Below, piece by piece: positions 1,599-17,237 of a DNA stretch of 32,000 nt. Positions within the stretch are counted from its first letter, which is position 1, and each line of letters starts with the position of its first letter. Origin of the DNA: Buchnera aphidicola (Neophyllaphis podocarpi) (GTDB taxonomy: Bacteria; Pseudomonadota; Gammaproteobacteria; Enterobacterales; Enterobacteriaceae); the NCBI RefSeq assembly GCF_964059055.1, contig NZ_OZ060386.1, positions 330,001-362,000 on the forward strand. Reading direction: 5' to 3'. Both the position numbers and the translations under genes were made by a program. The notes beneath the pieces were generated by a model. The model was not told the DNA's origin. It worked only from the letters and a program-made list of their open reading frames with translations, and ran no database searches.

Positions 1599-4349
1599 CT
1601 AAATAAACAAATATTTTTTATGTATATGTTTAATAAATGAAAAACTTAAACAATTATTAGATATGTTTACTCTAGAATTACTTTTTATTTTAGATGGAAT
1701 ATTATTTAAGCAATTTATTTTATTATATAGTTTACTGTTTTTATTTAAAACAACAATTTTGGTTATTGGAGCACTTGATTGATTCTTAATATGTTTCAAA
1801 AAATAAATTTTTTTATTAACTTTATTATCAAATTTATTTTTAGATATTTTTTTATAAATATTATATTTAATTTTTTTATTTAAAATTTTATTTTTTTTTA
1901 AAAATAAAATTATAATTAAATAATTAAATATTTGTTTTTTATAAAAACTGTTAATTTTGTGGTTAATAATTTTTATTATTTTAATTTTGTATTTTACATT
2001 TAAATTAACTAAATATTTTTTATATATTTTTTTTAATTTTATTTGTAAAGAGTATATAGAATAAGAAAACAAATTTGAAGATAAAAAAAATAATTTTAAT
2101 TCTACAAATAATATTTGAGCATATAAATTAAAAAATTTATTTTGATAATTTTTACATAAAAAATTCTGTAAATAGTAATTTTGATTTATATTTATAATAT
2201 AGTATAAATTATTTATAGATCTATTTGATTGTATATATGAAATTTTATATTTATTATTTATAATGTTTATTTTATAAAAATCATTTTTTATATTTATATT
2301 TTGTTTAATAAAAAATTTTTTAATATTAATTAAAAAAAATAAAGATTTTTTTTTAAAAATTTTAATAATACTTTTTATATTTTTGCTTAAATAATAAAAT
2401 TTTTTAAAAAGATAAAAATTATCAAAAAATTTATAAAATATTTTTTTTATATTATAAAAATAATTTTTAAAGACAAAAAAACAATCTAATGTAGCAATAT
2501 TATATTTTATTAATTTTTTTCTAAAATAGCTAATAGTAATATCTATTATTTTTTTAATTTTATTAAAAAACTTTTTTTTATATTTTATATATAAATTATT
2601 GATAAAACAAAAAATTGAATAAAAAAATTTTTTATGAAAATAATTTAGAATTAATTTAGTTATATTAGATATTTTATTAAAAAAATAGTTTACTTTTATA
2701 ATATTTTTAATATTTAAAGAATAATCTATTAAAAATTTATTTTTTAACTTTGAGTTACTTTTAAAAATACGCAAATCAATTTTATTTTTTATATATTTTT
2801 TTTCCAAATAATTTGAAATATCAATTTCATTAATTTTAGAAAGATGATAACTATTTTTTCTAACTTCTTCGCCTTTTTTTATTCTAATAATAGAATAATG
2901 GGGAGTATGCATAGATTTATTTGGTATAATTATAGTTTTTCCTCCATTTTGTTTTTTTTGTATTTTATTAATAGTATTACGTTTTTCATTTAATAAATAT
3001 GATGCTATTTCTATGGGCACAACAGCATGAACTTCGCAAGTATTTTCTTTTAATGACTCTTCTTCAATTAATCTTAAAATTGACAAAGATAAAGATTCGT
3101 TATCTCGGATAGCACCAGTACCAGTGCATCTAGGACAAATATGATAATTAGATTCGCTTAAAGAAGAATTTAAACGTTGTCTTGACATTTCTAATAAACC
3201 AAACCTAGAAATATTTCCTATTTGTATTCTAGCTCTGTCATTTTTAATAACTTTTTTTAATGTTTTTTCTATTATTTTTTGATGTTTTAATACAGTCATA
3301 TCAATAAAATCTATTACTATTAAACCACCTAAATCTCTCAATATTAATTGTCTAGATATTTCATTAACTGCTTCTAAATTTGTATTAAAAGCTGTTTCTT
3401 TAATATCAACTCCTTTAGTATATCTTGAAGAATTAATATCAATTGATGTAAGTGCTTCTGTTGTATCTATTATAATAGAGCCTCCAGAAGGCAATCTAAC
3501 TTTTCTTTGAAAAGCTGAATTAATTTGTGACTCAATCTGGTAATGACTAAATAAAGGAGTTTTTCCATTGTACAACTTTACTTTATTAATAAAGTCTAAG
3601 CGACCTAATAAATTTATATGTTTATATGAGAATTCTAAAATTTCTGGATTATCTATAATAATTTCCCCTATATCTGGTCTTAGATAATCTCTAAAAGCAC
3701 GAACTATTACATTACTTTCTTGATGTATTAAAAAAGGAGCCATTTTATTTTTAGCTATTTTTTGTATTTCATACCAATGTCTTAATCTAAATTTTAAATC
3801 TAATTTAAGATCTGTAATAGATTTACCTATACCAGCAGTTCTTATAATCACACTCATATTTTCAGGAATGTCTAATAAAGACAAAATATTTTTTAATTTA
3901 TCTCTATCCAATCCTTCTATACGACGAGATATTCCTCCAGAATTAGGATTATTTGGCATCAAAACTAAATAAATTCCAGCTAAACTAATAAAAGTAGTTA
4001 AAGCTGCTCCTTTACTACTACGCTCTTCTTTATTTATTTGAACTATAACTTCTTGACCTTCCTGTAAAACATTTTTGATATCAATGTGATCATTAAATAT
4101 AAAATTTGATTTCAAATATTCTTGAGAAATTTCCCTAATAGGTAAAAAACCATGTTTTTCTGTTCCATAATCAACGAAAACTGCTTCTAAACTAGGTTCT
4201 ATTCTAGTTATTTTGCCTTTATAAATATTTGATTTTTTTTGTTTATATCCAGAATTTTCTATATTAAGATTATATAAACGTTGCCCATCAACAAGAGCAA
4301 CACGAAGCTCTTCATATTGAGTTGCATTTATTAACATTCTTTTCATCAT
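1599..4349 (-). CDS. rne: Ribonuclease E; conserved catalytic N-terminal half plus highly divergent low-complexity C-terminal half
   Basis: 916-aa ORF. The first ~510 aa are colinear with E. coli RNase E (MKRMLINATQ.EELRVALVDGQRLY.L.IE, KGAALTTFISLAG.YLVLMPNNP..GGISRRIEG, Zn-link CPRCTGTGAIRDNESL). The remaining ~400 aa are K/N/I/F/Y-rich with no recognisable similarity. The start could be either of the tandem ATGs at 4349/4346. Confidence 0.95.
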   Translation of the reverse strand: MMKRMLINATQYEELRVALVDGQRLYNLNIENSGYKQKKSNIYKGKITRIEPSLEAVFVDYGTEKHGFLPIREISQEYLKSNFIFNDHIDIKNVLQEGQEVIVQINKEERSSKGAALTTFISLAGIYLVLMPNNPNSGGISRRIEGLDRDKLKNILSLLDIPENMSVIIRTAGIGKSITDLKLDLKFRLRHWYEIQKIAKNKMAPFLIHQESNVIVRAFRDYLRPDIGEIIIDNPEILEFSYKHINLLGRLDFINKVKLYNGKTPLFSHYQIESQINSAFQRKVRLPSGGSIIIDTTEALTSIDINSSRYTKGVDIKETAFNTNLEAVNEISRQLILRDLGGLIVIDFIDMTVLKHQKIIEKTLKKVIKNDRARIQIGNISRFGLLEMSRQRLNSSLSESNYHICPRCTGTGAIRDNESLSLSILRLIEEESLKENTCEVHAVVPIEIASYLLNEKRNTINKIQKKQNGGKTIIIPNKSMHTPHYSIIRIKKGEEVRKNSYHLSKINEIDISNYLEKKYIKNKIDLRIFKSNSKLKNKFLIDYSLNIKNIIKVNYFFNKISNITKLILNYFHKKFFYSIFCFINNLYIKYKKKFFNKIKKIIDITISYFRKKLIKYNIATLDCFFVFKNYFYNIKKIFYKFFDNFYLFKKFYYLSKNIKSIIKIFKKKSLFFLINIKKFFIKQNINIKNDFYKINIINNKYKISYIQSNRSINNLYYIININQNYYLQNFLCKNYQNKFFNLYAQILFVELKLFFLSSNLFSYSIYSLQIKLKKIYKKYLVNLNVKYKIKIIKIINHKINSFYKKQIFNYLIIILFLKKNKILNKKIKYNIYKKISKNKFDNKVNKKIYFLKHIKNQSSAPITKIVVLNKNSKLYNKINCLNNIPSKIKSNSRVNISNNCLSFSFIKHIHKKYLFI

Positions 4350-4702: not shown

Positions 4703-5631
4703 ATGACACACATCATTATAAACATCGATGAAAATAATATAAATCAAAGAATTGACAATTTTTTAAAAAAAAAATAAAAAAAATACACAAAAATACAATT
4801 TATAAAATATTACGTAAAGGAAATATACGTGTAAATAAAAAGAGAGTTAAACCAAAATATAAATTAAAAAATAAAGACATAGTAAAAATAACTAATATAA
4901 AATTTCAAAATAAGACTAATAAATATATCGATAAAAATATTATTAAACTAGAAAAAAGTATATTATATGAAGATAATTATTTAATAATAATAAATAAACC
5001 AGTTGGAATATCTGTACATGGAGGAAGTGGTATAAATTATGGTATTATAGAAAGAATAAGATTGCTTAGATCTAAAGTTAAATATTTAGAACTTGTACAT
5101 CGTCTTGATAAAGATACATCTGGAATTTTAATAATAGCAAAAAAAAGATCTACATTAGTATCCTTGCATAAACAAATTAGAGAACTGAAAGTTAAAAAAA
5201 AATATTTAACTTTAGTACATGGATTATGGTCTAAAAAAATTAAAAAAGTTGATTTACCTATATTAAAAAATAAAAAAAATAAAGGAATAAACTTAGTCAA
5301 AATTAGTTCATTAGGTAAAAAATCTCAGACTATTTTTGAAATCAAAAAAAAATATTTTAATATGACATTATTATATGCAATACCTGTTACAGGCAGAACT
5401 CATCAAATAAGAATTCATACATCTCATATAGGAAATCCTATAATTTTTGATAATAAATATGGTAATAAAATATTAGATAATAAAATTAATATTCAAAATT
5501 TAAGAAAAAAAATAATATTACATGCATATTCTATGAAATTCATACACCCTAATACTAAAAGTGAATTTTATATACAAGCACCTTTAAGTATAGAATTGAA
5601 AAAATACCTAAAAAGTCTAAACAACAATTAA
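4703..5631 (+). CDS. rluC: 23S rRNA pseudouridine synthase RluC, reading frame interrupted by a frameshift in an A10 tract (strictly a frameshifted gene; possibly rescued by slippage)
   Basis: ATG 4703 encodes [24 protein letters not shown], then TAA at 4775-4777. The -1 frame from 4774 continues [31 protein letters not shown]...[20 protein letters not shown]...GRTHQIRIH to the stop at 5631. Both halves align to E. coli RluC (..[60 protein letters not shown]). The ORF-track start at 5062 (TTG) would remove the S4 domain. Confidence 0.88.
4765..4774 (+). repeat. A10 homopolymer at the rluC frameshift site (followed by T then A8, 4776-4783)
   Basis: Counted directly: positions 4765-4774 are all A. 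The upstream frame is 4703 mod 3 and the downstream frame is 4774 mod 3, which differ by -1. Confidence 0.95.
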
Positions 5632-5927: not shown

Positions 5928-6881
5928 ATGAAATATGCAGTAATATTTCCAGGACAAAATTTTCAATCTATTAAAAATCTAAATAATCTTGCAAAAAAAT
6001 ATTCTTCGATTAAAAAAAAATTTTATGAAGCATCTGATTATTTAAATTGTAATTTATGGAATATAATACAAAATTTAGATGAAAAAAAAATTAATCTTAA
6101 TAATTATATACAACCTATTATACTAACAATATCTGTATCTATATATAATATATGGAAACAAAAAAAACAAAAAAAACCTACTATTATGGTTGGGCACAGT
6201 TTAGGAGAATATTCTGCTTTAGTATGCTCAAACAGTATAAATTTTGGTGATGCTTTAAAATTAATTATGATTAGAAGTAAATTAATGCAAGAAGTTTCAA
6301 TAAAAAATGAAGGATTAATGTATGCTATTGTGGGTATAGATAAAAATATTATAAATAACATATGTAATTTAGTTTCAAATAAAGAAATAGTTTCTATTGC
6401 AGCAATAAATTCTCCTGATCAAGTAATAATTTCCGGAAACAAAAATTCTATAATTAAAACTATTAAAATATGTAAAAATATTGGAGCAAAATATGTAATT
6501 AAATTACCAACAAAAATTCCTTCTCATTGTATATTAATGAAAGATATATCAATTATTTTTAAAAAAAAATTAAAAAAAATAAAATTTAAAAATCCTAAAT
6601 ATTTATTTATAGATAATGCAAATGCAAAATTTATTAATTCTGAATCTGATATTAAAAATTCTCTAGTAAAACAATTATATTGTCCAATATTATGGACAGA
6701 AGTTATGAAACTTATAGAAAAAAAAATTTTTTTATCAATTGAAATAGGGACTAAAAATATATTAAGTAATATTAATAAATATTTAACTAAAATCAACTCA
6801 TTAACAATTAACAATGAAAAAAACTTATATACTGCATTAAAATATATATTAAATAAAAAGGAAAATAATAAAAATGTCTAA
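5928..6881 (+). CDS. fabD: Malonyl-CoA:ACP transacylase
   Basis: 317-aa ORF with SD AAGGA upstream. It carries the active-site GHSLGEYSALV, IRSKLMQE (Arg) and PSHCILM (His), colinear with E. coli FabD. The N-terminal FPGQGSQ motif reads FPGQNFQ here. Confidence 0.9.
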   Translation: MKYAVIFPGQNFQSIKNLNNLAKKYSSIKKKFYEASDYLNCNLWNIIQNLDEKKINLNNYIQPIILTISVSIYNIWKQKKQKKPTIMVGHSLGEYSALVCSNSINFGDALKLIMIRSKLMQEVSIKNEGLMYAIVGIDKNIINNICNLVSNKEIVSIAAINSPDQVIISGNKNSIIKTIKICKNIGAKYVIKLPTKIPSHCILMKDISIIFKKKLKKIKFKNPKYLFIDNANAKFINSESDIKNSLVKQLYCPILWTEVMKLIEKKIFLSIEIGTKNILSNINKYLTKINSLTINNEKNLYTALKYILNKKENNKNV

Positions 6882-7592
6882 AAAAAAATAGCTTTAGTTA
6901 CAGGAGCTACAAGAGGTATAGGAAAATCTATAGCTCAAAATTTAACAAAAAGTAATTTTTTCGTGATTGGTACATCAACAAATAAGGAAGGAGTTAAACA
7001 AATTAGTAATTATTTACAAAATAATGGTTGTGGTTTAATATTACAGTTAGAAAAAATACAATCTATTGATAATATATTTAAAAAATTTAAAAACATAGAT
7101 GTATTAATAAATAATGCAGGTATTATATGTGATAAATTAATTACAAATATGAATATTGAAGATTGGAATAAAGTAATAGACATAAATTTAAAATCAGTTT
7201 TTTATTTATCTAAAAATGTTATAAAACATATGTCAAAAAATAATTATGGGAGAATTATTAATATAAGCTCTATATCTGGATTTACAGGCAATGTTGGACA
7301 ATCTAACTATTCAGCTTCAAAAGCAGGAATTGTAGGATTTACAAAATCTATTGCATTAGAAGTTGCTTTAAAAGGAATTACTGTAAATAATATATCTCCT
7401 GGGTTAATTAATACTAATTTGACTAAAAAATTAACAAATAAACAAAAAATAAAATTTATATCAAAAATACCAATGAAAAGATTTGGTAATGTACAAGAAG
7501 TAGCTGATTTAATATTATTTTTAGTCTCAAAAAAATCTTCATATATTACGGGGCAAACTATACATATAAATGGTGGAATGTATATGACTTAA
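6874..7592 (+). CDS. fabG: 3-oxoacyl-ACP reductase FabG, start codon out of frame with the body across an A9 tract (frameshifted; possibly rescued by slippage)
   Basis: SD AAGGAAA (6858-6864) precedes ATG 6874, which reads ATG TCT AAA AAA AAA TAG. The conserved body starts in the -1 frame at 6888: IALVTGATRGIGKSIAQNL...NNAGI...YSASKAG...GGMYMT, versus E. coli FabG MNFEGKIALVTGASRGIGRAIAETL. That frame has no ATG/GTG/TTG before GTG 6963, which lies after the TGxxxGIG cofactor motif. Confidence 0.85.
6880..6888 (+). repeat. A9 homopolymer at the fabD stop / fabG frameshift site
   Basis: Counted directly: 6880-6888 are all A. The fabD stop TAA occupies 6879-6881. The fabG body is in the same frame as fabD. 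Confidence 0.95.
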
Positions 7593-9622: not shown

Positions 9623-10417
9623 ATGTTTTTAGTAGATTCTCACTGTCATATTAGTAATTTAAATTCAATTAATGATAATATTTTAATAAATAATATAATA
9701 AATAGAGCTTTTAAAAAAAATATTAAATTTATTTTAGCTGTATCTACATCGATTAAAGATTTTTATAAAATAAAAAAAATAATAAAAAACAAAAAAAATA
9801 TAAAATGTTCTTGTGGAATTCATCCTTCATATATAAATAATAAAGAAGATTTTACAGAGTTAAAAAAAATATCTAAATATAATTTAGTTATAGCAATAGG
9901 TGAAACAGGATTAGATTATTATAAATGTTATACTCCCAAAACAAAACAACAAAATATTTTTCGTAAACATATAAATATTGCGTGCTCAGAAAAAAAACCA
10001 CTAATAGTACATACAAGAAATGCTATTCAAGATACCTTATCAATATTAAAAGAAGAAAAAGCAGAAAAATGTAGTGGAGTAATTCATTGTTTTAATGAAG
10101 ATATAATAGCAGCTAAAAAAATACTAGATATAAATTTTTATATTTCTTTTTCTGGAATTATAACTTTTAAAAATACAAATAAATTCATAGATATCATTAA
10201 ATTTGTTCCTATAAGTAAAATTCTTATAGAAACTGATTCTCCATACTTATCACCTGAACCATATAGAGGTATAAAAAATGAGCCATCTTTTTTAATAGAA
10301 ATTGCTAAAAAAATAGCTATTATTAAAAATAAAAGTGTTAATGAAATAGCAAAACAAACAACAAAAAATTTTTTTAAATTATTTAATAAAGTTACAAACT
10401 TTAACATGAAACATTAA
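9623..10417 (+). CDS. ycfH: TatD-family metal-dependent deoxyribonuclease/hydrolase YcfH
   Basis: 264-aa ORF with TatD motifs: N-terminal VDSHCHI, GETGLDYY, IHCF and ETDSPYL. Its position after holB matches E. coli. Confidence 0.85.
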   Translation: MFLVDSHCHISNLNSINDNILINNIINRAFKKNIKFILAVSTSIKDFYKIKKIIKNKKNIKCSCGIHPSYINNKEDFTELKKISKYNLVIAIGETGLDYYKCYTPKTKQQNIFRKHINIACSEKKPLIVHTRNAIQDTLSILKEEKAEKCSGVIHCFNEDIIAAKKILDINFYISFSGIITFKNTNKFIDIIKFVPISKILIETDSPYLSPEPYRGIKNEPSFLIEIAKKIAIIKNKSVNEIAKQTTKNFFKLFNKVTNFNMKH

Positions 10418-11938: not shown

Positions 11939-11983
11939 TTCTTATCACAAAATAAATAAAAATTACAAAAAAGAGAATAAATT

Positions 11984-12330
11984 ATGAAAAAAAAAATATT
12001 TTTGAAAAAATTATAAAAAAAGAAATAAAATCAGAAATAGTTTACCAAGATGAAAAAATTACAGCCTTTAAAGATATTAATCCTAAAGCTCCTATACATA
12101 TAATTATTGTACCAAATAAATTTATAAAAAATATGAATGAAATTACTATAAAACATAGCAAAATAATTTTTCATATGTTTTATACAGCAGTTAAAATAGC
12201 AAAAATGAAAAATATAGATTTTAGTGGATATAAATTAATTATAAATTGCAATAAAGATGGAGGACAAATAATTCCTTATTTACATATGCATTTAATAGGA
12301 GGTATAAAATTAAGTAATTTTATAGTTTAA
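11984..12330 (+). CDS. hinT: HIT-family purine nucleoside phosphoramidase HinT (YcfF), start codon out of frame with the body across an A10 tract (frameshifted; possibly rescued by slippage)
   Basis: SD AAGAGA (11971-11976) precedes ATG 11984, which reads ATG AAA AAA AAA ATA TTT TTG AAA AAA TTA TAA. The -1 frame from 11995 reads [42 protein letters not shown]...HMHLIGG. E. coli HinT is [45 protein letters not shown]...HMHLLGG. The first canonical start in the body frame is ATG 12133, which would lose the nucleotide-binding N-terminal half. Confidence 0.85.
11987..11996 (+). repeat. A10 homopolymer at the hinT frameshift site
   Basis: Counted directly: 11987-11996 are all A, immediately after ATG 11984-11986. 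Confidence 0.95.
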
Positions 12331-12509: not shown

Positions 12510-12662
12510 CTAATTATTAATTTTTAATAAATTAGGAATTTTATTATCAATAGGCCATATAATTTTATCATTATTACATATTAACTCATTTTTTGTACTA
12601 TTAAAAATTAATTTATTAAAACATATTGGACAAGCTAAAATATTTAATAAATTATTATCCAT
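12510..12662 (-). CDS. ycaR: Small Trm112-like/UPF0434 zinc-ribbon-type protein YcaR (50 aa)
   Basis: Not in the ORF track. Minus-strand translation from ATG (complement of 12660-12662) to TAG (12510-12512) gives MDNNLLNILACPICFNKLIFNSTKNELICNNDKIIWPIDNKIPNLLKINN. E. coli YcaR, recalled from memory, is [50 protein letters not shown]. Confidence 0.75.
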   Translation of the reverse strand: MDNNLLNILACPICFNKLIFNSTKNELICNNDKIIWPIDNKIPNLLKINN

Positions 12663-13366
12663 ATAAACTCAAAATAAAATGATAATATCATAAAATTATA
12701 ATATCATAAACTTATATTAAATTTTTATTAAAAAAGCTATAAAATACATTTTTATTCGAAATTATAATATAAATTTTTAAATAGAAATATTTAATTTATA
12801 ATTAAATAAAAATAAAACAATTTATGATTAACATTTTATTAAAATTAATAGTTAAATTTGATTTTTTGTATTATAAATTTCTATATTCAAAATAAATAAA
12901 TATAAAATATATTATTTGTAAAATTACATAATAAAAAAACTAAATTTTATTTATATAAAAATATTTATTATTAAAAAATATTAAAATATAAATTAGTATA
13001 GTTAATATAAAAAGTATAAATTCGATAAAATTTTTAATTTTTTAAAAAACTGAATTAAATATAAAAATCATAAAAATAAATTTAGTAATCAAAAAATTTA
13101 ATTTATATATATATATTAAAAAAATTTTAGTTATATAAAAATATAATAATTAAATTAAATTTTATTTTATTAAATTAAATTAGATTTAACTTAAAAAGTA
13201 AATTAATATTATTTTTAAAATTTAATTATATTAATTTTTAAAATTAAATATCTTTATAAAAACAAAATTAAAATATTATATTTAATATATAGATTTAAGA
13301 AAATAAAATTAAAATAAAAATATTTTTTACATAATTGTGACTTTAAAAATAAATATAAATAAAATT
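12663..13366. other. 704-bp gene-free hyper-AT spacer (about 5% G+C by line counts); no ORF and no structured-RNA-like G+C island
   Basis: The track shows no ORF on either strand. Individual 60-nt lines contain only 2-4 G/C. The spacer contains a short (TA)6 run at 13104-13116. Confidence 0.6.
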
Positions 13367-16191: not shown

Positions 16192-17148
16192 TTATAGAAG
16201 ATTATAAGTCTTATTAAAAAAATTATATTTACAAGCCAAAGAGCAATATTTATCTAAACTATTCCTGCAATATTTACATTGTATAAAAAGCAAATGACAA
16301 GAACTATTTTTACAATTTATATAAGTATCACAAAGATTATTACATTGATGACAAGAAGATATTATGTTATTTGAATAATCTTCAATCATACGCGCATCAA
16401 AAACAAAGAGTTTTCCTTGAAAGTAATTAGGTAAATTAAACTTATGTACATCACGTAAATATTTTAAGATACCACCTTTTATATGATATACATTTTTAAA
16501 ATTATTATTAAGTAACAAAGAGGTAGATTTTTCGCATCTAATACCACCAGTACAATACATTAATATCTTTTTATTTTTAAATTTTATTAATAAACTTAAT
16601 ATATCTTGCATTTGTTGTTTAAAAGTTTTAGCTCTAACATTTATAGAATTTACAAAATGTCCTATTTCATACTCATAATAATTACGCATATCTACTAATA
16701 CGGCAGAAGAATCTTCAATCATATTATTAACTTCTATAGCATTTAAATATATTCCATTATTTTTATTATTAAATTTATTACAAATAATACCATCAGAAAC
16801 AATTTGTTTTTTAATTCTGACATACAATTTATTAAATGGTATTTTACTATAACTTAGGGCTAAATTCATATACAAATTATTTAATTCAGATTTTAAAAGA
16901 TATATGAATAATTTCATTTTATGATAAAAAACCAAAGGTACACTAATTTGAGCATTAATACCTTCAAAAGATATATAAACTCTACCTAAAATATTCATTT
17001 TATTAAAATTTATATGAATAAAATCACGAAATAATTCCGGTTTACTAATATAAAAATATTTATAAAAAGAAACTATCTTAATTTTATGTATTTTATTTTT
17101 TTTTTTGTTCAACAAACTTTTTTTATCTTTACTCAACAAAAATGACAT
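16192..17148 (-). CDS. trhO: Rhodanese-domain protein YceA (tRNA U34 hydroxylase TrhO family)
   Basis: Colinear with E. coli YceA (SFYKYF.I, GRVY...EGINAQISVP, DMRN.YEYE.GHF, MYCTGGIRCEK, C-terminal HCHQC...CKN..CHLLFIQC). The ORF track starts at TTG 17160. ATG at the complement of 17146-17148 (MSFLLSK...) is preferred. Confidence 0.87.
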   Translation of the reverse strand: MSFLLSKDKKSLLNKKKNKIHKIKIVSFYKYFYISKPELFRDFIHINFNKMNILGRVYISFEGINAQISVPLVFYHKMKLFIYLLKSELNNLYMNLALSYSKIPFNKLYVRIKKQIVSDGIICNKFNNKNNGIYLNAIEVNNMIEDSSAVLVDMRNYYEYEIGHFVNSINVRAKTFKQQMQDILSLLIKFKNKKILMYCTGGIRCEKSTSLLLNNNFKNVYHIKGGILKYLRDVHKFNLPNYFQGKLFVFDARMIEDYSNNIISSCHQCNNLCDTYINCKNSSCHLLFIQCKYCRNSLDKYCSLACKYNFFNKTYNLL

Positions 17149-17237
17149 TAAATTCACCAAATATTTATATAATTTTAAATTTATATTTTAAAAGCTAACT
17201 ATTTATCAAAAATATCATTTATAATAAAAATATAATT

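What the first reader, a model, noticed from the sequence alone, without database searches (positions are those of the whole stretch)
11984..12135. hinT start codon is separated from the HIT-domain body by an A10 tract one base short
ATG 11984 (SD AAGAGA 7 nt upstream) is followed by A10, and its frame terminates after 10 codons. The -1 frame from 11995 reads [41 protein letters not shown]... through HMHLIGG to 12330.

With A11 the product is [11 protein letters not shown]..., the same length and register as E. coli [11 protein letters not shown].... The first canonical start in the body frame (ATG 12133) would leave only 65 aa and lose the nucleotide-binding half.
Basis: partly seen in the sequence, partly recalled or inferred. 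Interest (0 to 1): 0.65.

Follow-up and report, generated by a model that had tools for sequence, protein, structure and literature searches.

The report
Poly(A) frameshift in Buchnera hinT
The hinT gene of this aphid endosymbiont (Buchnera) really is knocked out of frame by a run of ten A's just after its start codon, but this is a well-known kind of endosymbiont "slippage-rescued" frameshift, and the genome's own depositors appear to have annotated it that way.

Summary
ATG 11984 is followed by A10 (11987-11996). Its frame stops after 10 codons. The complete HIT domain lies in the -1 frame and runs to 12330. One extra A gives MKKKNIFEK..., collinear with E. coli HinT.

The window is Buchnera aphidicola of the aphid Neophyllaphis. 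The same ATG+A10 is present in two other Neophyllaphis Buchnera genomes (99.3% and 95.3% identical), sequenced separately. So it is not a sequencing error.

The gene is not decaying. The body frame shows 5 synonymous and 1 non-synonymous change (omega 0.04, randomisation P about 1e-4) and no indels. The tract length is fixed, whereas all 8 intergenic A/T runs vary.

Two more genes in the window carry the same defect, conserved in all three genomes: rluC (A10, 4765-4774) and fabG (A9, 6880-6888). Each needs +1 A. Buchnera of Drepanosiphum has an independent one-A-short hinT at a different tract.

The most likely mechanism is RNA-polymerase slippage adding an A to a fraction of transcripts, as reported for other Buchnera genes by Tamas et al. 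2008. Ribosomal -1 slippage may contribute. Neither is testable here.

The deposited protein for this assembly is already MKKKNIFEK.... Verdict: real, supported, already known. Interest is low.

The parts
11971..11976 (+). Weak Shine-Dalgarno-like AAGAGA, 7 nt upstream of ATG 11984
   Evidence: It is not conserved in the 95%-identical genome, which has AAGAAA. It directly abuts ATA 11977, so the spacing to that codon is 0.
11984..11986 (+). Ancestral hinT start codon (ATG)
   Evidence: Conserved in all three Neophyllaphis Buchnera genomes. It aligns with the start Met of most of the aligned Buchnera HinT proteins and of E. coli HinT.
11987..11996 (+). A10 tract, one A short of in-frame. This is the proposed slippage site.
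   Evidence: Its length is 10/10/10 in three genomes that differ by up to 4.7%. All 8 intergenic runs of 7 or more vary in length.
11984..12016 (+). Zero-frame dead-end [13 protein letters not shown], the product of uncorrected mRNA
   Evidence: The T12012C difference in L086 is non-synonymous in this frame and synonymous in the body frame.
11995..12330 (+). hinT body in the -1 frame (NIFEK... to the TAA stop), a complete HIT domain
   Evidence: Pfam PF01230 E 6.7e-22. E. coli HinT 3N1S E 3e-32, collinear. Omega 0.04 with no indels against L086.
12283..12303 (+). Histidine-triad motif HMHLIGG
   Evidence: H101, H103, G106 and G107 are invariant in alignment A1.
11977..11979 (+). ATA in the body frame. 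The start that NCBI annotation chose on the two sister genomes corresponds to this codon (117-aa [11 protein letters not shown]...). It is probably not the real start.
   Evidence: AUA initiates at about 0.02-3% of AUG in E. coli (10.1101/063800).
12133..12135 (+). First canonical start in the body frame. It would give a 65-aa C-terminal fragment.
   Evidence: Gene calls on the Logan assemblies gave this fragment.
4703..5631 (+). Parallel case: rluC. ATG 4703, A10 tract 4765-4774, zero-frame stop TAA 4775-4777, body in the -1 frame.
   Evidence: The +1A product matches NCBIfam RluC as one stretch, residues 5-308. The tract is 10/10/10. Upstream of the tract, both differences from L086 are synonymous in the ATG frame; the body has omega 0.12.
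6874..7592 (+). Parallel case: fabG. ATG 6874, A9 tract 6880-6888, zero frame MSKKK*, body in the -1 frame.
   Evidence: The +1A product MSKKKIALVTGA... matches FabG models from residue 3. The tract is 9/9/9 and the body has omega 0.25.

Best explanation
hinT of the Buchnera aphidicola lineage living in Neophyllaphis aphids carries a fixed genomic frameshift. The lysine-coding poly(A) tract that follows the start codon is A10, where A11 is needed.

The gene is still functional and under purifying selection. Full-length HinT (MKKKNIFEK..., 115 aa) is most probably made because RNA polymerase slips backwards on the T10 template. This adds one A to a fraction of transcripts, and ribosomes starting at ATG 11984 on those A11 mRNAs read through into the HIT domain. 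Uncorrected mRNAs yield only the 10-residue peptide [10 protein letters not shown].

Shown here: the tract and the two frames, its identity in three genomes, selection on the body frame, constancy of the tract length, and two further genes with the same defect in the same window.

Inferred from precedent, not shown: that the correction happens at all, that it happens at transcription rather than translation, and its efficiency.
For: 1. It is a real genomic state. A10 is present in the window, in CP135042.1 (99.3% identical) and in CP135039.1 (95.3% identical). It is also present in independent Logan assemblies of SRR29340286 and SRR29340287. The two CP genomes were sequenced on Illumina NovaSeq (PMC11193766). 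All 15 other A/T runs of 9-11 nt inside genes of the window are in frame. Systematic under-calling of homopolymers is therefore unlikely.

2. It is not a pseudogene. Window versus CP135039.1 in the body frame shows 5 synonymous and 1 non-synonymous difference, omega 0.04. Intact neighbours have omega 0.10-0.30. Same-type mutations placed at random give 5 or more synonymous changes in 2 of 20,000 trials. There are no indels or stops.

3. The tract length is constrained. An indel is seen in 0 of 3 frameshift tracts and 1 of 90 coding runs, against 8 of 8 intergenic runs of 7 nt or more (Fisher P 0.006).

4. ATG 11984 is the orthologous start. Buchnera of Tetraneura ulmi has ATG+A10 in frame, giving MKKKT....

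5. Bridging is needed elsewhere in this genome. In rluC, 21 codons upstream of its A10 tract encode the conserved N-terminus (QRIDNFL) in the ATG frame. That segment shows only synonymous changes. The +1A product matches the RluC model as one stretch. A downstream alternative start cannot explain that.

6. All four cases need +1 A: hinT, rluC and fabG here, and hinT of Drepanosiphum Buchnera at a different tract. This is the direction RNA polymerase favours. In Buchnera, 151 of 157 transcription insertions fell in homopolymer runs, mostly single bases (PMC5574713).

7. Precedent exists. Frameshifted genes in an aphid endosymbiont and an ant endosymbiont give 12-50% corrected transcripts by slippage at long poly(A) runs (review PMC5009743 citing Tamas et al. 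2008; PMC3017870).

8. The depositors' stated policy is to annotate such genes as functional (10.1101/2022.08.28.505559). The deposited product on a 559,180-bp contig, the same length as the window's assembly, is MKKKNIFEK....
Against: No RNA or protein data exist for this locus.

The same A-run is also a slippery site for ribosomes, so the level at which correction occurs is undetermined.

A body-frame ATA (11977) exists that would give a complete protein. Selection on the body frame alone cannot exclude it.

The selection test for hinT rests on only six substitutions.

The +1 direction bias (4 of 4) could reflect a deletion-biased mutation process rather than a rescue bias.
Confidence: 0.6

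Rival explanations
1. Ribosomal -1 frameshifting or sliding. Ribosomes start at ATG 11984 on unedited A10 mRNA. While decoding AAA AAA AAA they slip back one base, and tRNA-Lys re-pairs with AAA. They continue in the body frame and give the same MKKKNIFEK... product.
For: A AAA AAA is a classic X XXY YYZ slippery heptamer (sequence). E. coli ribosomes pause and slide on iterated AAA codons (PMC4363877). An oligo(A) frameshift in chloroplast atpB is corrected mainly at translation, with no detectable transcript slippage (PMC8254509). An SD-like AAGAGA lies 10 nt upstream of the tract, a distance at which an internal SD stimulates -1 shifting in dnaX (recalled from memory).
Against: There is no downstream stimulatory structure: 100 nt fold at -4.6 kcal/mol, z -0.17. 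There is no Rfam hit. The SD-like element is weak and altered in CP135039.1. Published evidence for Buchnera and Blochmannia points to transcript heterogeneity. The two mechanisms are not exclusive.
Confidence: 0.15
2. Non-canonical initiation in the body frame, at ATA 11977 (as NCBI annotation assumed for the sister genomes) or at ATT 11962 or ATT 11998. No frameshift correction would then be needed.
For: The body frame is open from 11959 and contains ATT 11962, ATA 11977 and ATT 11998. The 117-aa ATA-start product would contain the whole HIT domain. The same ATA solution is formally available for fabG (6888) and rluC (4807).
Against: AUA and AUU initiate at about 0.02-3% of AUG in E. coli (10.1101/063800). 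The only SD-like element abuts ATA 11977 with spacing 0 and lies 21 nt from ATT 11998. This model gives no reason for a conserved ATG at the orthologous start position, one frame off, in all three genes. For rluC an ATA start would discard a conserved N-terminal segment that evolves synonymously in the ATG frame.
Confidence: 0.08
3. hinT is a young pseudogene, or a dispensable gene on its way out. The poly(A) indel is the first lesion and no functional product is made.
For: Poly(A) indels are the usual first step of gene erosion in Buchnera (PMC3017870 citing Moran et al. 2009). hinT has been hit independently in Drepanosiphum Buchnera, which could mean weak selection on the gene. HinT has no known symbiotic role (own knowledge).
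Against: The lesion predates a split with dS of about 0.09-0.15. Yet the body shows omega 0.04, no indels and no stops, while flanking spacers accumulated 6-13% substitutions and many gaps. The tract length is frozen, unlike every intergenic run. The essential gene fabG carries the same lesion.
Confidence: 0.07
4. DNA-level heterogeneity. Buchnera is highly polyploid, and a minority of genome copies carry A11 through replication slippage and supply the functional protein. The consensus A10 hides this.
For: Homopolymers of this length are hypermutable. All 8 intergenic runs differ among the three genomes.
Against: All five assemblies give A10 as the consensus. A frequently arising in-frame allele would be expected to be fixed in at least one lineage if it were favoured. 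Read-level data could not be examined here.
Confidence: 0.05
5. Sequencing or assembly error. The true genome has A11.
For: Homopolymer length is a classic error source.
Against: The length is the same in three genomes that differ in sequence, sequenced separately, and in independent Logan re-assemblies of SRR29340286 and SRR29340287, probably the same two samples. All 15 other runs of 9-11 nt inside genes are in frame. The depositors kept A10 in the DNA while bridging it in the protein.
Confidence: 0.02

Closest known systems
Poly(A)-tract frameshifts rescued by transcriptional slippage in Buchnera aphidicola and Blochmannia (Tamas et al. 2008 PNAS; Wernegreen et al. 2010 MBE; Williams & Wernegreen 2010, PMC3017870)
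   Same: The host group is the same. There is a single 1-nt indel inside a homopolymer of 9 or more A's, and the ORF is otherwise intact. The out-of-frame length is conserved between diverged strains or species. The downstream frame is under purifying selection.
   Different: hinT is not one of the genes I found described; the review names cell-wall genes and a histidine gene. Here the tract starts directly after the start codon, so no upstream coding segment is available to test. Slippage has not been measured for this locus.
The annotation policy of Manzano-Marin et al. 2023 (10.1101/2022.08.28.505559), which bridges such frameshifts (e.g. the conserved poly(A) in pheA of Periphyllus Buchnera)
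   Same: The Drepanosiphum hinT CDS is 344 nt for a 114-aa product, which shows the same bridging.
   Different: This is an annotation convention resting on Tamas et al. 2008, not locus-specific evidence. NCBI's pipeline annotated the sister genomes differently, with ATA starts.
E. coli dnaX-type programmed -1 ribosomal frameshifting (A AAA AAG), and ribosome sliding on poly(A) (PMC4363877)
   Same: A slippery run of A with Lys codons, a -1 direction, and an SD-like element about 10 nt upstream.
   Different: There is no downstream stem-loop. In dnaX the shift makes a second, shorter product from an intact gene. Here the shift is needed to make the only functional product.
E. coli HinT (purine nucleoside phosphoramidase, PDB 3N1S), the protein encoded
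   Same: Collinear over residues 2-111 and the HxHxH motif is present. hinT lies next to ptsG in all the Buchnera loci examined.
   Different: It is about 45% identical and scores below the NCBIfam equivalog cut-off. It has a Lys-rich N-terminus, and its gene is out of frame.

Membership tests
HIT superfamily / HinT (purine nucleoside phosphoramidase) | HIT domain present above Pfam's gathering score | tested here: met
   PF01230, 78.4 bits against a cut-off of 21.5, profile positions 1-95 of 98, for the +1A product.
HIT superfamily / HinT (purine nucleoside phosphoramidase) | Histidine triad HxHxHxx motif | tested here: met
   HMHLIGG at 12283-12303. H101 and H103 are invariant in alignment A1.
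HIT superfamily / HinT (purine nucleoside phosphoramidase) | Score above the NCBIfam equivalog cut-off for HinT (NF007965) | tested here: not met
   126.4 bits against a cut-off of 206, although the match covers positions 2-113 of 119. Such a shortfall is expected for a fast-evolving, AT-rich endosymbiont protein. Orthology is supported instead by conserved ptsG-hinT adjacency in Buchnera and by collinearity with 3N1S.
Endosymbiont poly(A) frameshift rescued by transcriptional slippage (Tamas 2008 type) | A single indel located inside an A/T homopolymer of about 9 nt or more, in an otherwise intact ORF | tested here: met
   A10 at 11987-11996. The body frame is open for 111 codons with no other lesion.
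Endosymbiont poly(A) frameshift rescued by transcriptional slippage (Tamas 2008 type) | The frameshifted tract length is conserved among diverged strains or species | tested here: met
   10/10/10 in three genomes down to 95.3% identity. All 8 intergenic runs vary.
Endosymbiont poly(A) frameshift rescued by transcriptional slippage (Tamas 2008 type) | Purifying selection on the frame downstream of the tract | tested here: met
   Omega 0.04, 5 synonymous to 1 non-synonymous, randomisation P about 1e-4. The sample is only six substitutions.
Endosymbiont poly(A) frameshift rescued by transcriptional slippage (Tamas 2008 type) | The mRNA population is heterogeneous in tract length, with a corrected fraction well above that in genomic DNA | not testable with these tools
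   No RNA data are accessible. Precedent only (12-50% in other genes, PMC5009743). A genome-wide study saw no restoring event (PMC5574713).
Endosymbiont poly(A) frameshift rescued by transcriptional slippage (Tamas 2008 type) | Full-length protein is detected | not testable with these tools
   No proteomic data.
Programmed -1 ribosomal frameshift (dnaX type) | Slippery heptamer X XXY YYZ | tested here: met
   A AAA AAA lies within the tract.
Programmed -1 ribosomal frameshift (dnaX type) | Downstream stimulatory stem-loop or pseudoknot | tested here: not met
   MFE -4.6 kcal/mol, z -0.17 against shuffles. No Rfam family matched.
Programmed -1 ribosomal frameshift (dnaX type) | Upstream SD-like stimulator about 10 nt from the slip site | tested here: inconclusive
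   AAGAGA lies 10 nt upstream, but it is weak, it doubles as the initiation SD, and it reads AAGAAA in CP135039.1.
Non-canonical (ATA/ATT) start | A near-cognate start codon in the body frame with an SD at 5-10 nt | tested here: not met
   The codons exist (ATT 11962, ATA 11977, ATT 11998). SD spacing is 0 nt for ATA 11977 and 21 nt for ATT 11998, and there is no SD before ATT 11962.
Pseudogene | Additional disruptions and relaxed selection in orthologues | tested here: not met
   No stops or indels, and omega 0.04, comparable to or lower than intact neighbours.

The most novel reading that the evidence does not exclude
The out-of-frame tract lengths may be selectively maintained 'throttles' rather than merely tolerated damage. 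In the Neophyllaphis Buchnera lineage a sizeable set of genes would be kept one A short so that slippage sets a low, fixed expression level. In this 32-kb window the set is 3 of roughly 28 genes: hinT, rluC and fabG. All need +1 A, and all lie within the first 25 codons.

What supports it: none of the three tracts has reverted to the in-frame length or changed at all among three genomes, although every intergenic run of 7 nt or more has changed.

Why this is weak: the absence of reversion in 3 tracts has an estimated chance probability of roughly 0.1-0.3. The same argument was already made for Blochmannia by Wernegreen et al. 2010.
Probability: 0.12. Interest if true: 0.5.

Novelty: already known. 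Interest (0 to 1): 0.2.

Why it matters
The main value is practical, for annotation. The same locus is annotated three ways in public data:

- a bridged 115-aa product from the depositors,
- a 117-aa product from an ATA start chosen by NCBI's pipeline,
- a 65-aa fragment from automatic gene calls on the Logan assemblies.

rluC and fabG suffer the same inconsistency. Metabolic reconstructions of endosymbionts depend on which reading is used; fabG, for example, is essential for fatty-acid synthesis.

Biologically, this adds a clean, three-genome conserved example to the known class of slippage-dependent genes in Buchnera. It also adds two neighbours and an independent hit in another lineage. It does not open a new question.

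Tried and rejected
- The single genome-contig scan with a Buchnera HinT alignment returned 80 non-Buchnera loci (Gilliamella, Stammera, Vibrio and others). It gave no orthologous Buchnera DNA. Orthologous loci were obtained instead through exact-protein look-ups, which are now exhausted.
- The window's own assembly is not in the gene-position index. I could not read the depositors' CDS coordinates directly.
- Tamas et al. 2008 (PMC2567471) and Wernegreen et al. 2010 (PMC2877537) are not held in the library. They are cited only through papers that summarise them.
- The promoter and terminator scan was uninformative: 15 promoter-like sites against 13.6 expected, and no terminator between ptsG and hinT.
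- No stimulatory RNA structure was found. There were no Rfam families and no tRNAs in the window.
- I looked for a porin pseudogene in the ORF-free spacer 12663-13366, because a porin gene lies downstream of hinT in Tetraneura and Periphyllus Buchnera. Nothing was detectable.
- I considered termination-reinitiation after the 10-codon ORF, at ATT 12010 or ATA 13. I rejected it because the product would lack the invariant I6, F7 and I10.
- The acpP row used a wrong frame and should be ignored.

Full report
**1. What is in the sequence**

The window has 21% G+C. At 11984-11986 there is an ATG, followed by exactly ten A (11987-11996). That frame reads [10 protein letters not shown] and ends at TAA 12014-12016. 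An AAGAGA lies 7 nt upstream of the ATG, at 11971-11976.

The frame one base back is open from 11959 to TAA 12328-12330. From 11995 it reads [41 protein letters not shown]...[15 protein letters not shown]. It has no ATG, GTG or TTG before 12133.

With one extra A the product is MKKKNIFEK..., 115 aa. This product:
- matches Pfam HIT over profile positions 1-95 of 98 (E 6.7e-22);
- aligns without gaps, residues 2-111 to 2-111, with E. coli HinT (PDB 3N1S, E 3e-32).

The 65-aa product from ATG 12133 covers only the C-terminal half of the domain. It lacks the invariant I6, F7 and I10.

An A10 run is not itself improbable in this composition, since 2-3 are expected per 32 kb. Its position is what matters.

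**2. Where the window comes from**

Exact-sequence look-ups place the window's PtsG, AsnS and TatD proteins on an NCBI contig of 559,180 bp. The cluster of the hinT product holds three kinds of annotated protein, all labelled Buchnera aphidicola of Neophyllaphis:
- 117-aa [11 protein letters not shown]..., on contigs of 559,524 and 559,476 bp;
- 115-aa MKKKNIFEK... (CAL4323164.1), on a contig of 559,180 bp;
- 65-aa fragments from Logan assemblies.

The 117-aa form corresponds to a start at the body-frame ATA 11977.

[quoted passage not shown] 2008 (preprint 10.1101/2022.08.28.505559). A submission named in the same style shows this bridging directly. In Buchnera of Drepanosiphum platanoidis (OZ060412.1) the hinT CDS is 344 nt for a 114-aa product and does not translate to it.

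I infer that the depositors of this genome already recognised the frameshift and bridged it. I could not read their CDS coordinates.

**3. It is not a sequencing error**

Two other complete genomes carry the identical ATG+A10. CP135042.1 is 99.3% identical to the window over 20 kb, and CP135039.1 is 95.3% identical. Independent Logan assemblies of SRR29340286 and SRR29340287 also carry it.

The two CP genomes were sequenced on Illumina NovaSeq (PMC11193766).

Of the 18 A/T runs of 9-11 nt inside genes of the window, the other 15 are in frame. One of them is an 11-nt run in the gene at 16192-17160. Systematic under-calling of homopolymers is therefore unlikely.

**4. It is not a decaying pseudogene**

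Between the window and CP135039.1 the hinT body frame has six substitutions: five synonymous and one non-synonymous. Omega is 0.04, against 0.10-0.30 for intact neighbours. There are no indels. When the same six mutation types are placed at random, five or more are synonymous in 2 of 20,000 trials.

The T12012C change is synonymous in the body frame and non-synonymous in the ATG frame. The frame under selection after the tract is therefore the body frame.

The flanking spacers diverge by 6-13% and have many gaps.

Among the three genomes, all 8 intergenic A/T runs of 7 nt or more have changed length. Only 1 of 90 coding runs has, and none of the three frameshift-bearing tracts (Fisher P 0.006 for 0 of 3 against 8 of 8).

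Since all three genomes share A10, the lesion predates their split (dS about 0.09-0.15). The gene has been kept intact since then.

**5. The same thing happens twice more in this window, and once more elsewhere**

A scan of all A/T runs of 8 nt or more for frame switches found two more cases.

*rluC.* ATG 4703 reads ...[10 protein letters not shown] and stops at TAA 4775-4777, just after an A10 tract (4765-4774). The body continues in the -1 frame to 5631. Adding one A gives a protein that matches the NCBIfam RluC model as a single stretch, residues 5-308.

*fabG.* ATG 6874 reads MSKKK*. The A9 tract is 6880-6888. Adding one A gives MSKKKIALVTGATRGIG..., which matches FabG models from residue 3.

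Both tract lengths are identical in all three genomes. Both bodies are under purifying selection, with omega 0.12 and 0.25.

In rluC, both differences from CP135039.1 in the 21 codons upstream of the tract are synonymous in the ATG frame. Both segments appear to be translated, each in its own frame. Only a frame-bridging mechanism explains that; a downstream alternative start does not.

NCBI's pipeline gave the sister genomes shorter products for these genes too. By my coordinate mapping these start at ATA codons, window 4807 for rluC and 6888 for fabG.

In Buchnera of Drepanosiphum, hinT is one A short at a different tract. It has A11 at nt 37-47, and A12 is needed to give ...IIKKKKSKKIVYQ. 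In Tetraneura ulmi Buchnera the ATG+A10 is in frame, giving MKKKT.... In Periphyllus, hinT has in-frame A11 and A14 tracts.

hinT in Buchnera is thus full of long poly(A) tracts and has been hit at least twice independently.

**6. Mechanism**

All four cases need one added A, which is equivalent to a -1 shift.

Published work shows that RNA polymerase slips on long poly(A) runs in Buchnera and Blochmannia and gives 12-50% corrected transcripts for frameshifted genes (review PMC5009743 citing Tamas et al. 2008; PMC3017870). Transcription insertions in Buchnera are overwhelmingly single-base additions in A/T homopolymers, 151 of 157 (PMC5574713).

My best explanation, at confidence 0.6, is therefore as follows. 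A fraction of hinT transcripts acquire an eleventh A. Ribosomes starting at ATG 11984 on those transcripts make full-length HinT.

This is inference from precedent plus the comparative signature. Nothing here measures RNA or protein. The same CirSeq study noted no observed case of a restored frame.

*Ribosomal -1 slippage or sliding* is the main rival (0.15), and the two can coexist.
- For: sliding on AAA codons is documented in E. coli (PMC4363877). An oligo(A) frameshift in chloroplast atpB appears to be corrected at translation (PMC8254509).
- Against it as a programmed event: there is no downstream structure (z -0.17), no Rfam match, and the SD-like element is weak and not conserved.

*Initiation at ATA 11977, ATT 11962 or ATT 11998* (0.08) is disfavoured for four reasons.
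- Such codons initiate poorly in E. coli, at 0.02-3% of AUG (10.1101/063800).
- The SD spacing is unusable.
- The conserved, orthologously placed ATG would be unexplained.
- The rluC case cannot be explained this way.

The remaining rivals are pseudogene (0.07), minority A11 genome copies (0.05) and sequencing error (0.02).

**7. Comparison with what is known, and novelty**

This is the endosymbiont poly(A) frameshift class described by Tamas et al. 2008 and Wernegreen et al. 2010. The computationally testable criteria are all met:
- the lesion lies within a homopolymer of 9 nt or more;
- the gene is otherwise intact;
- the tract is conserved across diverged strains;
- the downstream frame is under purifying selection.

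The two experimental criteria, transcript heterogeneity and full-length protein, cannot be tested here.

The deposited protein for what appears to be this very assembly already bridges the frameshift. I found no paper that discusses hinT specifically. I classify the finding as already known.

Two points add modest value. First, three conserved cases occur in 32 kb, all needing +1 A and all near the 5' end. Second, the same genes are annotated in three incompatible ways in public records.

The most novel reading not excluded is that the out-of-frame lengths are actively maintained as expression throttles (probability about 0.12). The non-reversion evidence is weak, and the idea itself was already proposed for Blochmannia.

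**8. Verdict**

The mechanism is inferred from strong precedent. Novelty is low. Interest is 0.2.

Noticed in passing
window 4703-5631 (tract 4765-4774): rluC carries the same kind of lesion. ATG 4703 reads ...[10 protein letters not shown], then TAA, right after an A10 tract, and the body continues in the -1 frame. Adding one A restores a protein that matches the RluC model as one stretch (residues 5-308). The tract is A10 in all three Neophyllaphis Buchnera genomes. The NCBI-annotated sister genomes carry a truncated 274-aa product that lacks the N-terminal segment.
   Followed up: yes
window 6874-7592 (tract 6880-6888): fabG, an essential fatty-acid synthesis gene, starts ATG TCT A9 TAG, giving MSKKK*. 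The body KIALVTGATRGIG... is in the -1 frame. A10 would restore it. The tract is A9 in all three genomes. There is an AAGGA Shine-Dalgarno 11 nt upstream of the ATG. The ATG overlaps the last codon and stop of fabD (GTC TAA).
   Followed up: yes
L088 1501-1844 (Buchnera of Drepanosiphum platanoidis, OZ060412.1): This is an independent hinT frameshift in another Buchnera lineage, at a different tract (A11 at nt 37-47 of the gene; A12 is needed). The annotated CDS is 344 nt for a 114-aa product. hinT genes of several Buchnera carry in-frame A10-A14 tracts (L087, L089, L090).
   Followed up: partly
L085 / L086 (CP135042.1, CP135039.1): hinT at 10001-10354, rluC at 2832-3656 / 2842-3666, fabG at 4913-5617 / 4908-5612: The NCBI annotation of the sister genomes resolves all three frameshifted genes by choosing ATA start codons in the body frame. 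Automatic gene calls on the Logan assemblies give a 65-aa hinT fragment. The same locus therefore has three incompatible annotations in public data.
   Followed up: partly
window 1963-22331 compared with L085 and L086: All 8 intergenic A/T runs of 7 nt or more differ in length among the three genomes. Only 1 of 90 runs inside genes does: 16216-16222, near the 3' end of the rhodanese-domain (UPF0176) gene at 16192-17160. This is a clean illustration of how mutable these tracts are and how strongly length is constrained in coding sequence.
   Followed up: yes
window as a whole compared with CP135042.1 and CP135039.1: Host labels do not match sequence similarity. The window's assembly is labelled Neophyllaphis podocarpi. 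It is 99.3% identical to the genome labelled N. varicolor and only 95.3% identical to the other genome labelled N. podocarpi. This could be host misidentification or cryptic host species.
   Followed up: no
window 12663-13366: This is a 704-bp spacer between the small Trm112-like gene (12510-12662, minus strand) and asnS, with no ORF of 50 aa or more. In Tetraneura and Periphyllus Buchnera a porin gene lies downstream of hinT. tblastn found no detectable porin remnant here. The spacer shows many indels among the three genomes. The Trm112-like gene itself has omega about 0.7 (7 non-synonymous, 2 synonymous).
   Followed up: partly
window 17096-17106 (minus-strand gene 16192-17160): This is the longest homopolymer in the window: T11 on the + strand, A11 in the gene. 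It lies near the 5' end of a rhodanese-domain (UPF0176) gene, is in frame, and is 11/11/11 in the three genomes. It would make a useful internal control for any slippage assay.
   Followed up: partly
window 1-32000: The whole 32 kb contains no tRNA genes (ARAGORN) and no Rfam family at gathering threshold.
   Followed up: yes
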